From: Escherichia coli
Lineage (GTDB): Bacteria; Pseudomonadota; Gammaproteobacteria; Enterobacterales; Enterobacteriaceae
Direction: 5' to 3' (one strand)
DNA: 64,000 nt
Assembly: GCF_051903065.1 (NCBI RefSeq)
Contig: NZ_CP178439.1
Below, in pieces: positions 45,001-48,000 of this stretch. Position numbers: made by a program. The stretch's first letter is position 1. Each line of letters opens with the position of its first letter.

Positions 45001-48000
45001 GGTACATGACTATAAGTTAATTGACTATCTGAATACTATTCTGATCCCTGACACCAAAAAACCAGCCAGAGGTATTAACATTGTTGCTGAAAAATTTACC
45101 TCTATTAATTACACTATGGCCAAAAACATACCCCTCTTACTTTATCAGTCCATTTTCCGGTGGAACTTAATCCTGGGGTGGCTAATCGTTTTTCTGCCCT
45201 ATCTATTTGCCATGCTAGCAGATGGAATGTACCAGTGGAAATTGAAGAGGTACGTATTTGGTAAGGTTACAGTTCAGTTTTATCGTATTTGGTTTCGAGC
45301 ATTTTGGGTGATCAGTGCTTTAACGATGGTCTACCTGGTCATGCCGAATATGTCACTATTTAACAATATCGCTCAACTTTTCCCACCAGTCGCTTTATTG
45401 ATACTGGGAATTGCATTGAATCGCTTGTGGTCTAACTTTCAAAAACTCATGTAAAGGTGGTCAGATGTTAAGCAGTAAAAAAAGGAAGTCCCCTACAAAT
45501 ATCAAAGAATCGCTCAATGATAACGCTGACCGTTTTTATAAGATGTTTCGCATTCATACCACGGCAAAAGTTGCTATGTCGCTAATTGCCATGACCGCTG
45601 TAGGGTTTTCTTTCTACAATCTTTACGAACAATGGCAGGACGCTGAAGGGAAGAAAGACCATATAGCTGTAATACGGATTTCTGGCGAGATGGGTACCGG
45701 CTCGGAAACGGGCGATGGAACAGTGATCGCAACAGCTCTTGCCAAAGCTTACAATAATCCCCATGCCAAAGCAGTTATTATCGAGGCAGAGTCAGGTGGT
45801 GGTGGTCCCTCTGACGCCATCATTATTTACCGCCAGATAAACGCGCTTAAAAACCACCAGCCACAGATTGAACGCGTATCAGATGCCGGTTGCTCTCTTT
45901 CATCTGTAGCCGCTGACAAGAGTAACAAAACCGGGAGCACAGAACGTGGCGATGAAGCACGGTCGAAGCAAAACTCCCTCGAAGTACTCTCCAGCGGTAC
46001 CGGTCGTTTTTTCTCTGATATCGCAGACTCATATAAACCAATCATCGTTAGTGTGAAAGGCATATGCGCATCCGCATGCTATTACGCGGTATCGCCCGCT
46101 GATGCAATTTATGCCGACAGTAATGCCCTGATCGGTTCTATCGGTGTGCGTATGGACCACTGGAATCTGTCAGAGATCATGAGCACAGTAGGCGTCAAGA
46201 ATGAGCCCCTTACGGCCGGTGAGTTCAAAGATGCTCTTGACCCCTTCCACCCATTGTCCGATTCAACGAGGGAGTTCATGCAGAAGGAGATCCTGAACAC
46301 GATGCATGAAAAATTTATAACTGATGTTGAACTTGGACGGGGTAAAAAGCTTCTCTCGCGTCATGATGCCGATGCTGTTTCTCTCTATTCAGGCCGTGTA
46401 TGGCCAACACCTCAGGCAGTTAAGTACGGCCTGGTGGATGGAGATCTTACGTCAGTAGAGATCCGTACACGTCTTTCAAAAATGTACTCCACTGACACGT
46501 TCAAAAACTACAATGAGCCTCATCGTAATCTCCGTTCTGCACTCGGCATGCTGATGAGCCTGTCTTCAAATATTGAGAGCCTTACCGGTACCACTACCCG
46601 CTTGGTAGAATCTGTTAATGCCACCAGCTACCCCTCTGTGAGGTAACATGGATGCTTTCAATCTGCTGTGGAGCATTACGGGGGTAGCTTTCATTATCCT
46701 TATTTTCGTCGTGTTGCTGTGTCTGTTGGGTTTTATGACCTCTGCCATAGCGGAACGGCGGACTGCAAAGGCAATTGAATCTGGGCTTCCTGAAGAAGCT
46801 CAGGGGCTACTTAGTGATCTCACCTTTCAGTTGTCGGCTCATAGCACTACTCAGGTTGATCACATTCTCGTAGCCCCACATGGTATATACGTCATAGAGC
46901 AGAAAAACTACGTAGGCAAGCTCTACGGTACTCTGGAGGAAAGCCACTGGCGGAAATGGACTCAGTCCCGAACCCTCAAGTTGCAGAACCCGTTTAAGCA
47001 AAACCAGGGGCACATCAGGGCTATTCAGTCTGCTCTTAAGGCTAGAGAACTGGAATGTATCAATGTCGTCATCATAAACGGACGTTGTAAGTTTGATGGC
47101 ATCAAGCCGGAATGGTTATGTATGGGGATGGACGATTTTATCCATAAAGTCAAACAACGACGAGGGCTACGGTTGTTCACACCGGAGTCTGTTCAGCACA
47201 TCTGTTCGGTGTTGAAGTCAACAAGGAAGTCGCCAGGGCTCTATACGGACCTTACTCATATTCACAACATAACGACAAAGTACAAAGCCCCGATGAAATT
47301 CGAGCAACGAGTAACATACATTCTGCTCAACTTTATCCATTATCTGTGGGCAAGTCTGTTCACTAAGCAGAAGCCTTAGCGCTCTATCATTGGTAAGGCT
47401 GTAAAATGTCTGCAAAAGGCCCCATCGGTAAATTGTTGGGGCTTTTTCTTTGCGTAGTTCTGATACGGTTTATCCTGTGGAGCATTATGGCCACCAGCCA
47501 GCTGGTGACTGGCCAACGCTTTGTATGACGTAGCCTACTCAGGGCAGGCTATTTTAGAGGGACCGATTTTTATCCGGGCTAATTTAGAAAGAGATAATTT
47601 GAACTTAGGCGGGCTGACCACCAGCAGAGAGGTAAATCACTAGCCGGTGATATTGACAGAAGTCGTCAGGGGTTTAACGCCGGAATATTTTGCCAGGCCT
47701 CCTGCAAGGTCTGCAAGACTTCTACAAGTGATAGTGACGGCCACAGGACTGTTTCCGTCATTATCACTCCAGGTGGCTCGCACTCTACTGGTACCAGAAT
47801 TAAAACAACACGAGTTCCTTTTACCTGGTAGGCAAGGTTTACTGCCGGTTGGCGGTAGGAGGCCAGTACACCCTCACCATATTGAGCAGGGTTACTTGCC
47901 CAGTTCCGCACCATTGCATACACCTGAGGCATATACCGACTATCCAGATCCCCTTTGGGCCGTCTGAACGGCACGATTTCTTCTGAGCGGTAGGTGGTCG

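What the first reader, a model, noticed from the sequence alone, without database searches (positions are those of the whole stretch)
45465..47450. S49 peptidase plus NERD nuclease-domain membrane protein co-transcribed with the relaxase and coupling protein
The last two genes of the traI-traG operon encode a membrane-anchored SppA-like S49 serine peptidase and, 2 bp later, a membrane-anchored NERD (PD-(D/E)xK-like) protein, followed by a clean terminator. A protease-nuclease pair is not a standard T4SS or relaxosome component that I recognise; it could act in DNA processing, exclusion, or as a plasmid-encoded defense or addiction module riding on the transfer operon.
Basis: inference. Interest (0 to 1): 0.6.

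Follow-up and report, generated by a model that had tools for sequence, protein, structure and literature searches.

The report
IncHI relaxase-operon S49 peptidase and NERD nuclease
The last two genes of the relaxase operon of this IncHI2 resistance plasmid are real, intact and already-annotated backbone genes (a periplasm-facing SppA-like protease and a membrane-tethered NERD nuclease) of unknown function, and comparison with relatives shows they are two independent accessories, not a coupled protease-nuclease system.

Summary
Window 45465-46646 encodes a 393-aa S49 peptidase and 46648-47379 a 243-aa NERD protein, with a terminator hairpin at 47415-47446. They close the operon mobI/traH-orfA-traI-traG-orfB-traJ-S49-NERD of an IncHI2 (R478-type) plasmid.

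Both genes are ordinary IncHI backbone. They occur in about 975 PLSDB plasmids and are the orthologues of R27 R0116 ("peptidase") and R0115, which are listed in the HtdA-controlled H operon.

The "pair" reading is not supported:
- The S49 gene sits directly after traJ in at least seven distant MOBH lineages that lack NERD. In four of these it directly precedes the pilin gene traA.
- NERD occurs only in the IncHI-like subclade, evolves fastest in the operon, and survives only as a fossil in a Photorhabdus relative that keeps S49.
- Charge distribution places the protease in the periplasm and the nuclease in the cytoplasm.

Catalytic residues are invariant in both: S203/K255 in S49, and D71/E84/K86 in NERD.

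My best reading is that S49 is a pilin/leader-peptide or envelope housekeeping protease of the transfer apparatus. NERD is a later-added, transfer-co-expressed nuclease, possibly a guard against incoming nucleic acid. Neither function has been tested. Interest is modest.

The parts
37237..37722 (+). mobI / traH, the first gene of the operon (R27 R0122 equivalent)
   Evidence: RefSeq annotation of an identical IncHI2 plasmid, mapped from L001. R27 numbering comes from PMC7366339.
37719..38456 (+). orfA, a conserved hypothetical gene (R27 R0121 equivalent)
   Evidence: It has a strong PHROG hit of unknown function (phrog_20548, E 3e-105).
38460..41612 (+). traI, the MOBH relaxase
   Evidence: The orthologues carry TraI_2 (PF07514).
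41612..43696 (+). traG / traD, the type IV coupling protein
43693..44805 (+). orfB, a 370-aa conserved hypothetical (R27 R0118 equivalent)
   Evidence: It has no Pfam-independent family hit. A protein of about 190 aa holds this position in L007, L009 and L010; L013 has 233 aa and L012 has no gene here.
44792..45454 (+). traJ (DUF4400 / DtrJ-like, PF14348), an essential Dtr membrane protein
   Evidence: RefSeq annotation and Pfam assignments on the orthologues.
45465..46646 (+). S49 (SppA-like) serine peptidase, 393 aa (R27 R0116 equivalent)
   Evidence: PF01343 at E 5.8e-28. The AF2 model is closest to B. subtilis SppA (TM 0.79-0.81). It is 72-73% identical to the IncHI1 orthologue.
45570..45626 (+). 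S49 N-terminal hydrophobic segment (residues 36-54), a putative signal anchor preceded by a very basic N-terminus
   Evidence: Kyte-Doolittle maximum of 1.39 here and 1.6-2.35 in the orthologues. The N-flank is basic and the C-flank acidic. The topology is inferred.
45855..46028 (+). Low-complexity insertion (residues about 131-188) specific to the IncHI-like S49 clade
   Evidence: Alignment A2. pLDDT is below 50 for residues 133-160.
46071..46073 (+). Codon of the predicted catalytic Ser203 (motif C-A-S-A-C)
   Evidence: It aligns with the B. subtilis SppA nucleophile. It is invariant in alignments A2 and A3.
46227..46229 (+). Codon of the predicted catalytic Lys255
   Evidence: It aligns with the position of SppA K199, which is Ala in the 3RST mutant. 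It is invariant.
46648..47379 (+). NERD (PD-(D/E)xK-type) membrane-tethered protein, 243 aa (R27 R0115 equivalent)
46681..46737 (+). NERD N-terminal transmembrane helix (residues 12-30)
   Evidence: Kyte-Doolittle 3.1. In 15 of 16 homologues in alignment A1 (which includes a solo Vibrio NERD) the N-flank has 0-1 K/R and the C-flank has 2-5 K/R, so the NERD domain is predicted to be cytoplasmic.
46858..46905 (+). Codons of the D71 ... E84-x-K86 nuclease motif (VDHILV ... YVIEQK)
   Evidence: Invariant in 16 homologues, together with D57, Q118 and H122.
47415..47452 (+). Intrinsic-terminator-like hairpin plus U-tract that closes the operon
   Evidence: RNA fold and direct reading of the sequence.

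Best explanation
These are two separate accessory genes that share the distal end of the IncHI relaxase (H) operon. They are not a functional protease-nuclease pair.

(1) The S49 gene is an old companion of the MOBH11-type transfer module. It encodes an SppA/SohB-like Ser-Lys protease, probably anchored in the inner membrane with its catalytic domain in the periplasm. It is made together with the transfer genes. I infer that it serves biogenesis of the transfer apparatus. The most likely job is clearing the long leader peptide of the pilin, or trimming or quality-controlling exported Tra proteins. This is a helper role, not an essential one.

(2) The NERD gene was added later, at the point where IncHI ancestors split their tra region. 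It encodes a PD-(D/E)xK nuclease tethered to the cytoplasmic face of the inner membrane. I infer that it cuts nucleic acid at the membrane when the conjugation machinery is switched on. I lean towards a guard role against foreign nucleic acid entering piliated cells (pilus-specific phage, or DNA from other donors) rather than a step in the plasmid's own DNA processing.

Shown here: gene integrity, family membership, conserved catalytic residues, synteny, co-regulation of the R27 orthologues, and differential conservation. Inferred: topology, substrates and biological role.
For: Identity and spread:
- 975 PLSDB plasmids carry the region at 95% identity or more, and they are typed IncHI2A/MOBH/MPF_F.
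- The same gene order is found in IncHI1 pHCM1 and in a Klebsiella IncHI-like plasmid.
- 240 of 5426 complete E. coli genomes carry the region, almost always on plasmids.

Co-regulation:
- The R27 microarray supplement lists R0116 as '(H), peptidase' and R0115 as '(H)'.

S49 is independent of NERD:
- The order traJ-S49 without NERD is seen in Motilimonas, Vibrio hepatarius, Neiella and Photorhabdus heterorhabditis, and three metagenomic lineages.
- In four of these lineages the next gene is a TraA-family pilin (NF041281, E 1e-9 to 1e-13; local pilin HMM at E 6e-48), followed by traL-traE-traK-traB in the three metagenomic lineages whose downstream genes were annotated.

Constraint:
- Identity between IncHI2 and IncHI1 is TraG 83, TraJ 80, S49 73, TraI 65 and NERD 63%.
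- At long range, S49 (28-31%) tracks TraG (33-34%) and exceeds TraJ and TraI.
- dN is 0.187 for S49 and 0.285 for NERD, the highest in the operon.

Active sites and folds:
- S203 and K255 are invariant, and the S49 model matches the SppA fold.
- NERD D71, E84 and K86 are invariant, and its model has a restriction-endonuclease fold.

NERD is dispensable:
- A fossil 'HGIYVI*EKNYVG' lies directly after an intact S49 gene in Photorhabdus heterorhabditis.

Other MOBH plasmids carry an S49 gene elsewhere:
- In IncC it lies next to dsbA and is described as a core gene, sppA.
- In a Pseudomonas plasmid it stands alone.

Guard reading for NERD:
- NERD domains occur in PglW, MAD6 and MkoA.
Against: No experiment bears on either protein's activity or role.

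From my own recollection of Lawley et al. 2002 (J Bacteriol 184:2173; not held here), only traH, traI, traG and traJ of this operon are required for R27 transfer. Any role in conjugation must therefore be auxiliary or conditional.

IS insertions in the S49 gene, or within or next to the two genes, occur in a few otherwise complete plasmids.

The S49 membrane anchor is weakly hydrophobic in this plasmid. Topology rests only on the positive-inside rule.

Adjacency to the pilin gene is circumstantial. SXT, IncC and Rts1 transfer without an S49 gene in this slot.

For NERD, no complete defence system is recognised. The gene also sits at a fixed backbone position, unlike typical variable defence cargo.
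Confidence: 0.55

Rival explanations
1. This is a coupled protease-nuclease module, either defence or addiction. The S49 protease would sense a trigger and activate, or restrain, the NERD nuclease, and the module would ride on the transfer operon.
For: The two genes are tightly linked, with a 1-nt spacer here and a 4-nt overlap in L011. They co-occur strictly within IncHI1, IncHI2 and the Klebsiella-type plasmids, for example 268 plasmids in the 60-80% identity band for each protein. The NERD domain resembles the N-termini of PglW, MAD6 and MkoA.
Against: S49 keeps the same position without NERD in at least seven lineages. NERD has decayed next to an intact S49 gene. The catalytic domains are predicted to lie on opposite sides of the membrane. 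PADLOC has no hit for S49 and only domain-level hits for NERD. Rates of evolution differ markedly. There is no antitoxin-like partner.
Confidence: 0.07
2. NERD is a DNA-transfer accessory of the relaxosome and coupling-protein complex. Tethered beside TraG and TraJ, it would process the plasmid's own DNA, for example by resolving stalled or aberrant transfer intermediates or cutting the non-transferred strand.
For: It lies in the relaxase operon and is co-derepressed with traI, traG and traJ in R27. Like TraG and TraJ, it is predicted to be tethered to the cytoplasmic membrane. Its catalytic triad is invariant across orthologues of 23-63% identity.
Against: It is absent from sister MOBH systems that have the same relaxase, T4CP, TraJ and S49 set. 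It has been lost in Photorhabdus heterorhabditis. It is the fastest-evolving protein of the operon. It is not among the genes named as essential for R27 transfer (plus my recollection of Lawley 2002).
Confidence: 0.2
3. The S49 protease is general envelope housekeeping (a SohB/SppA back-up) carried by large plasmids, with no specific link to the pilus or to transfer.
For: Its nearest non-plasmid relatives are chromosomal S49 genes of Gammaproteobacteria, 40-45% identical in the catalytic half, with no tra genes within 10 kb. IncC and Pseudomonas MOBH plasmids carry an S49 gene away from the tra genes. The R27 orthologue gives a substantial, temperature-independent basal signal.
Against: The position between traJ and the pilin/Mpf genes is fixed across lineages that share only about 30% identity. 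Conservation is on a par with the coupling protein. The gene is derepressed by loss of HtdA along with the tra genes.
Confidence: 0.15

Closest known systems
R27 (IncHI1) H-operon genes R0116 ('peptidase') and R0115
   Same: These are orthologues, 72-73% and 63% identical. They hold the same position after traJ, with the same operon order and a convergent downstream gene. [quoted passage not shown]
   Different: This window is the IncHI2 (R478-type) version. Apart from sequence divergence there is no structural difference. No function is assigned in either plasmid.
SppA / SohB signal peptide peptidases (MEROPS family S49; B. subtilis SppA, PDB 3RST and 4KWB)
   Same: It shares the S49 Pfam domain, the Ser-Lys dyad at aligned positions, the SppA fold (TM 0.8 to 3RST), and an N-terminal anchor followed by the catalytic domain.
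   Different: It scores below the NCBIfam equivalog cut-offs for SppA and SohB (121 vs 155 bits; 55 vs 259 bits). It carries a 58-residue low-complexity insertion and a CASAC active-site motif in place of GASGG. It is encoded in a conjugative relaxase operon.
IncA/IncC plasmid core gene sppA (next to dsbA)
   Same: This is also an S49 peptidase with a conserved dyad, carried on a MOBH/MPF_F conjugative plasmid.
   Different: It is only about 26% identical. It lies in a different locus (beside dsbA, far from traI-traD-traJ), has a GASGG motif and has no NERD neighbour.
NERD-domain proteins (PF08378): the pXO1-type single-domain proteins, and the NERD modules of PglW (BREX/Pgl), MAD6 and MkoA, plus ZwsA (preprint)
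   Same: It shares the NERD profile match, the D...ExK motif and the restriction-endonuclease fold. A large family of proteins of about 200-260 aa covers profile positions about 10-214, which include the N-terminal anchor in this protein (301 clusters at E below 1e-30).
   Different: It has no kinase, helicase or RNA-binding domain and no partner genes of those systems. Its bit scores are far below their cut-offs (41 vs 460; 20 vs 990). It has an extra C-terminal amphipathic helix. It sits at a fixed position at the end of a relaxase operon.
Other plasmid nucleases carried near transfer genes (for example the thermonuclease-family gene of IncC; from my own knowledge, pKM101 Nuc)
   Same: This follows a recurrent theme of an accessory nuclease on a conjugative plasmid with no defined role in transfer (for IncC).
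   Different: It has a different fold and family (PD-(D/E)xK NERD, versus staphylococcal-nuclease or PLD folds). It is predicted to be cytoplasmic and membrane-tethered rather than secreted.

Membership tests
Peptidase family S49 (SppA/SohB type) | Match to the S49 profile | tested here: met
   PF01343 at E 5.8e-28, residues 188-338. TIGR00706 SppA_dom at E 4e-35.
Peptidase family S49 (SppA/SohB type) | Ser-Lys catalytic dyad at the positions of B. subtilis SppA S147 and K199 | tested here: met
   S203 and K255 align with these positions. Both are invariant in 11 and in 17 homologues.
Peptidase family S49 (SppA/SohB type) | SppA-like (ClpP/crotonase-type) fold | tested here: met
   The AF2 model (pLDDT 71.6, core above 85) has Foldseek top hits 4KWB and 3RST, at E 5e-15 and TM 0.79-0.81 normalised to the target.
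Peptidase family S49 (SppA/SohB type) | Orthology to housekeeping SppA or SohB (NCBIfam equivalog cut-off) | tested here: not met
   121 bits against a cut-off of 155 (SppA_dom), and 55 against 259 (SohB). It is a distinct subfamily, not the housekeeping enzyme.
Peptidase family S49 (SppA/SohB type) | Membrane anchor with an exported catalytic domain, and proteolytic activity | tested here: inconclusive
   The hydrophobic segment at residues 36-54 scores KD 1.39 here and 1.6-2.35 in orthologues. The N-flank is basic. Activity cannot be tested with these tools.
NERD / PD-(D/E)xK nuclease superfamily | Match to the NERD profile | tested here: met
   PF08378 at E 1.9e-21, covering model positions 3-109 of 111.
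NERD / PD-(D/E)xK nuclease superfamily | D ... (D/E)-x-K catalytic motif | tested here: met
   D71, E84 and K86 are invariant in 16 homologues.
NERD / PD-(D/E)xK nuclease superfamily | Restriction-endonuclease-like fold | tested here: met
NERD / PD-(D/E)xK nuclease superfamily | Nuclease activity and substrate (DNA or RNA) | not testable with these tools
   This needs purified protein.
Known NERD-containing defence systems (BREX/Pgl PglW, MADS MAD6, Mokosh MkoA) | Full-length architecture and partner genes | tested here: not met
   Only the N-terminal NERD region matches, at scores far below the cut-offs. The neighbouring genes are tra genes and small hypotheticals.
Core (essential, universal) MOBH Dtr / T4SS components | Presence at this position in MOBH conjugative systems generally | tested here: not met
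   NERD is absent from at least seven tra-linked lineages. IncC keeps its S49 gene elsewhere. No S49 or NERD gene is mentioned among the 32 Rts1 genes needed for efficient conjugation.
Core (essential, universal) MOBH Dtr / T4SS components | Requirement for transfer | not tested
   The Lawley 2002 mutational paper is not held. Reviews name only traI, traG and the trh genes. My recollection is that traH, traI, traG and traJ are the only essential genes of this operon.
IncHI H (relaxase) operon backbone | Orthology and synteny with R27 R0116 and R0115, and co-regulation | tested here: met
   Synteny and 73% / 63% identity.

The most novel reading that the evidence does not exclude
The two genes would be dedicated 'costs-of-piliation' functions that IncHI-type plasmids switch on together with transfer. 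The S49 protease would be a plasmid-specific pilin-maturation or leader-clearing peptidase, ancestrally encoded immediately upstream of the pilin gene. The NERD protein would be a membrane-tethered nuclease that destroys nucleic acid injected through or alongside the H-pilus or mating channel. It would thereby protect donors from pilus-specific phages such as the H-pilus RNA phages, or from invading plasmids. That would make it a transfer-coupled immunity function embedded in a relaxase operon.
Probability: 0.15. Interest if true: 0.65.

Novelty: already known. Interest (0 to 1): 0.33.

Why it matters
IncHI1 and IncHI2 plasmids are major vehicles of multidrug, mcr and typhoid resistance. Their transfer operons still contain conserved genes with no assigned role.

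S49 tracks traJ and the pilin gene across deep MOBH lineages, whereas NERD is a late and losable add-on. This turns a vague "odd pair" into two separate, testable questions. One is a candidate pilin or envelope protease of H-type conjugation. The other is a candidate transfer-coupled nuclease.

If the nuclease proved to guard piliated donors against pilus-specific phages or foreign DNA, it would be a new kind of defence placement. If neither gene has a phenotype, they are ordinary accessory backbone.

Tried and rejected
- The primary R27 Tra1 and Tra2 mutational papers could not be read by DOI or PMC id. Full-text searches for IncHI with S49 or peptidase, for the R27 locus numbers, and for TraDIS of IncHI gave nothing functional.
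- PADLOC gave no hit for S49 and only domain-level NERD hits. I rejected this as evidence for a defence system.
- PHROGs matched S49 to phage head-maturation proteases. This is family-level similarity only, and there is no phage context.
- The PDB sequence search found nothing for NERD.
- The Rfam scan of 43000-50000 gave only a sub-threshold Mu-gpT-DE hit.
- I considered the CASAC active-site motif as a unique, possibly redox-related signature of the tra-linked clade. It is enriched there: 10 of 10 tra-linked loci, counting L024, which the regular expression missed. However, chromosomal S49 genes commonly have CASGC or CASGG, and two of them have CASAC. I keep it only as a weak marker.
- dN/dS between IncHI2 and IncHI1 could not be calculated because dS is saturated. 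Only the dN ranking was used.
- The genome-wide scan pattern ([IL][VIT]GSIGVRM) was too general. Most of the 80 loci it returned are chromosomal S49 genes.
- A 509-aa TraJ-S49 fusion protein (P0001) comes from a single 1.9-kb contig and needs a frameshift. I treated it as an assembly artefact.
- Small ORFs on the minus strand inside both genes have no support.
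Full report
**What is there**

The window is a piece of an IncHI2 (R478-type) conjugative plasmid. The 2.9-kb stretch around the finding is at least 95% identical in 975 PLSDB plasmids from Escherichia, Salmonella, Enterobacter, Klebsiella and others. A representative is typed IncHI2A / MOBH / MPF_F. The region also occurs in 240 of 5426 complete E. coli genomes, almost always on plasmids.

On the + strand, a run of genes with overlaps or very short gaps reads as follows:
- mobI/traH, 37237-37722
- orfA, 37719-38456
- traI, the MOBH relaxase, 38460-41612
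- traG/traD, the coupling protein, 41612-43696
- orfB, 43693-44805
- traJ (DUF4400 / DtrJ-like), 44792-45454
- the S49 peptidase gene, 45465-46646
- the NERD gene, 46648-47379

The S49 stop codon and the NERD start codon are 1 nt apart (TAAcATG). Each gene has its own Shine-Dalgarno sequence. A G+C-rich hairpin at 47415-47446 followed by a U-run closes the unit. The next gene is convergent.

**Domain assignments**

The S49 protein:
- It matches Peptidase_S49 at E 5.8e-28.
- Residues S203 and K255 align with the Ser-Lys dyad of B. subtilis SppA. Both are invariant in 11 and in 17 homologues down to 26% identity.
- An AlphaFold model built on the clade alignment is closest to B. subtilis and then E. 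coli SppA, with ClpP further away.
- It scores below the NCBIfam equivalog cut-offs for SppA and SohB. It is therefore a distinct S49 subfamily.
- It carries a disordered insertion of about 58 residues (131-188) that the more distant relatives lack.

The NERD protein:
- It matches PF08378 at E 1.9e-21.
- D71, E84 and K86 (VDH...IEQK), together with D57, Q118 and H122, are invariant in 16 homologues.

**Topology (inferred)**

- The NERD protein has a strong N-terminal transmembrane helix (Kyte-Doolittle 3.1). In 15 of 16 homologues in the alignment it has 0-1 K/R before the helix and 2-5 K/R after it. By the positive-inside rule, the nuclease domain is cytoplasmic.
- The S49 protein has a very basic N-terminus, then a moderately hydrophobic segment (1.39 here, 1.6-2.35 in orthologues), then an acidic flank. 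As in SppA and SohB, this places the protease in the periplasm.
- If both predictions are right, the two catalytic domains do not share a compartment.

**The genes are known backbone**

IncHI1 pHCM1 and a Klebsiella IncHI-like plasmid have the same eight-gene order. In R27 numbering the operon runs R0122 (traH) to R0115. The supplement of PMC7366339 lists R0116 as "(H), peptidase" and R0115 as "(H)".

That supplement also reports expression:
- In an htdA mutant at 25 C the two genes are derepressed 4.7-fold and 5.6-fold. The figures for traJ, R0118, traG and traI are 7.3, 8.6, 9.2 and 11.
- The distal genes R0115-R0118 give sizeable signals at both 25 and 37 C. R0121 and R0122 are strongly thermoregulated.

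Reviews name only traI, traG and the trh genes as functional Tra1 components. The original mutational paper was not available. My recollection of its abstract is that 9 of 14 Tra1 ORFs are essential and that, in this operon, these are traH, traI, traG and traJ. This point was not verified here.

**The pair is not a unit**

I followed S49 homologues outward and read their contigs. The order mobI-orfA-traI-traD-(orfB)-traJ-S49 recurs at 28-40% S49 identity without any NERD gene in:
- Motilimonas
- three metagenomic lineages
- Vibrio hepatarius, Neiella litorisoli and Photorhabdus heterorhabditis

tblastn with the NERD protein finds nothing in eight of these nine loci at E ≤ 1, apart from one chance-level match (E 0.10) inside the L029 relaxase gene.

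In four lineages the gene immediately after S49 is a small protein with a leader of about 40 residues and two hydrophobic segments. It matches the TraA-family pilin model at E 1e-9 to 1e-13 and a local pilin HMM at E 6e-48. In the three metagenomic lineages it is followed by traL-traE-traK-traB.

NERD follows S49 only in the IncHI-like subclade:
- IncHI2, IncHI1 and the Klebsiella types
- a Buttiauxella element
- two metagenomic contigs

Within that subclade, Photorhabdus heterorhabditis keeps an intact S49 gene (55% identity). After its stop codon there is only a fossil: ATG GTT CTA CTA TAG, then HGIYVI*EKNYVG. The fossil matches NERD residues 78-90 at 11 of 13 positions, with a stop at the catalytic Glu.

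Conversely, the NERD family stands alone elsewhere:
- a solo copy (32% identity) on a Vibrio MOBH plasmid, far from any S49 gene
- pXO1-type Bacillus plasmids
- an unrelated MAG context
- hundreds of clusters of proteins of about 200-260 aa that cover profile positions about 10-214, a span that includes the N-terminal anchor in this protein

**Rates of change**

| Protein | Identity, IncHI2 vs IncHI1 (%) | dN |
|---|---|---|
| TraG | 83 | 0.113 |
| TraJ | 80 | 0.135 |
| S49 | 73 | 0.187 |
| orfA | 67 | 0.241 |
| orfB | 66 | 0.231 |
| TraI | 65 | 0.245 |
| NERD | 63 | 0.285 |

Against the most distant elements, S49 (28-31%) stays close to TraG (33-34%) and above TraJ (24%) and TraI (18-20%). 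NERD falls to 31% and then 23% within the IncHI-like clade. dS is saturated, so every protein is under purifying selection, and NERD is the least constrained.

**Interpretation**

S49 is the conserved piece. It is an SppA-like periplasm-facing protease that has travelled with traJ, and ancestrally with the pilin and Mpf genes, for a long time. Two other groups of MOBH/MPF_F plasmids also carry an S49 gene:
- IncA/C, where it lies next to dsbA and is described as the core gene sppA
- a Pseudomonas plasmid

This fits a helper role in making exported transfer components. The most economical mechanism is removal of the long pilin leader, or trimming or quality control of exported Tra proteins, when the tra genes are induced. 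This is inference. The adjacency to the pilin gene is circumstantial, and SXT, IncC and Rts1 manage without an S49 gene in this slot.

NERD looks like a later addition at the point where IncHI ancestors separated Tra1 from the pilin/Mpf block. Several features suit a conflict-type accessory better than a step in the plasmid's own DNA processing:
- its intact active site
- its membrane tether facing the cytoplasm
- its co-expression with the transfer machinery
- its fast evolution and occasional loss
- its kinship with NERD modules of defence proteins

A recent preprint also reports that a NERD-domain protein is an RNA endonuclease acting against pilus-dependent RNA phages. That makes a guard function for piliated donors a testable idea. 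I rate it as unproven.

**What speaks against anything more exotic**

- No defence system is recognised.
- No RNA element lies in the region.
- No partner gene suggests a toxin-antitoxin arrangement.
- The genes sit at a fixed backbone position.
- Rare IS insertions occur in the S49 gene (pN53023; two clonal E. coli plasmids), or within or next to the two genes in two further plasmids. They show that the interrupted gene is dispensable for plasmid maintenance.

**Verdict**

However, the two genes are long-catalogued IncHI backbone (R0116 and R0115), not a newly seen module. The evidence separates them into an ancient transfer-linked S49 protease and a clade-specific NERD nuclease. Their functions remain open, which keeps some interest, but a specialist would find little here that is surprising.

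Noticed in passing
L023:11143-11200 (Photorhabdus heterorhabditis SF41, NZ_RCWA01000006.1): A fossil of the NERD gene lies directly after an intact S49 gene. It reads ATG GTT CTA CTA TAG, then 'HGIYVI*EKNYVG', which matches NERD residues 78-90 at 11 of 13 positions with a stop at the catalytic Glu.
   Followed up: yes
L009:10120-10461; L013:9186-9518; L012:9032-9511; L027:11089-11487: In distant MOBH elements the gene immediately after the traJ-linked S49 gene is a TraA-family pilin. In L009, L012 and L013 it is followed by traL-traE-traK-traB. This suggests that the IncHI Tra1/Tra2 split happened just downstream of S49.
   Followed up: partly
window 43693-44805 (orfB) and 37719-38456 (orfA): Two further conserved operon genes have no known function. 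orfB (370 aa) has no family hit; a protein of about 190 aa holds its position in L007, L009 and L010, L013 has 233 aa there, and L012 has no gene in that slot. orfA matches PHROG phrog_20548 (unknown function) at E 3e-105.
   Followed up: partly
R27 orthologues (PMC7366339, supplement file 1): The distal H-operon genes R0115-R0118 give substantial, temperature-independent array signals (about 700-1500). The proximal genes R0121 and R0122 are induced 8-12-fold at 25 C. This hints at an internal promoter or differential mRNA stability.
   Followed up: no
L016 (pN53023, CP049311.1), L017 (p418-mcr, NZ_CP091559.1); hits H151-H154: Natural IS insertions are present. IS3 interrupts S49 in pN53023 and IS5 interrupts S49 in two clonal E. 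coli plasmids (H151, H152). An IS3 (H153) and ISApl1 (H154) lie within or next to the two genes. ISVsa5 interrupts traJ in p418-mcr. These plasmids are possible ready-made mutants.
   Followed up: partly
window 48726-49028 (- strand): A small annotated hypothetical gene has a run of 13 consecutive Gly codons near its C-terminus. The opposite strand reads as a poly-Pro ORF, which is a GGN/CCN homopolymeric tract.
   Followed up: no
window 46065-46079 (S49 residues 201-205): The active-site motif is C-A-S-A-C in all tra-linked S49 proteins. In most chromosomal or IncC-type S49 proteins it is CASGG, CASGC, AASGG or GASGG. Two Cys residues flank the nucleophile in a protein predicted to be periplasmic, on plasmids that also encode DsbA/DsbC-like proteins.
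   Followed up: partly
L030-L097 (genome-contig scan): Chromosomal S49 genes of Thiomicrorhabdus, Hydrogenovibrio, Methylophaga, Competibacteraceae and others share the GSIGVRM motif. They are 40-45% identical in the catalytic half. They may represent the source lineage of the plasmid protease.
   Followed up: no
window 49026-49068 (- strand): There is a weak Rfam match to Mu-gpT-DE RNA (24.4 bits against a gathering score of 49; E 0.03). It is probably chance.
   Followed up: no
window 28157-34570 (- strand) and the region upstream of the window's Tra1 on reference plasmid NZ_CP019260.1 (record 134096-137992, locus L015; not mapped onto the window): The Tra1 neighbourhood carries several periplasmic helper genes: a thioredoxin-family gene next to trhH, DsbA-family and thioredoxin-fold genes, and a lytic transglycosylase. 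This is consistent with a plasmid-borne set of envelope-maturation helpers to which S49 may belong.
   Followed up: no
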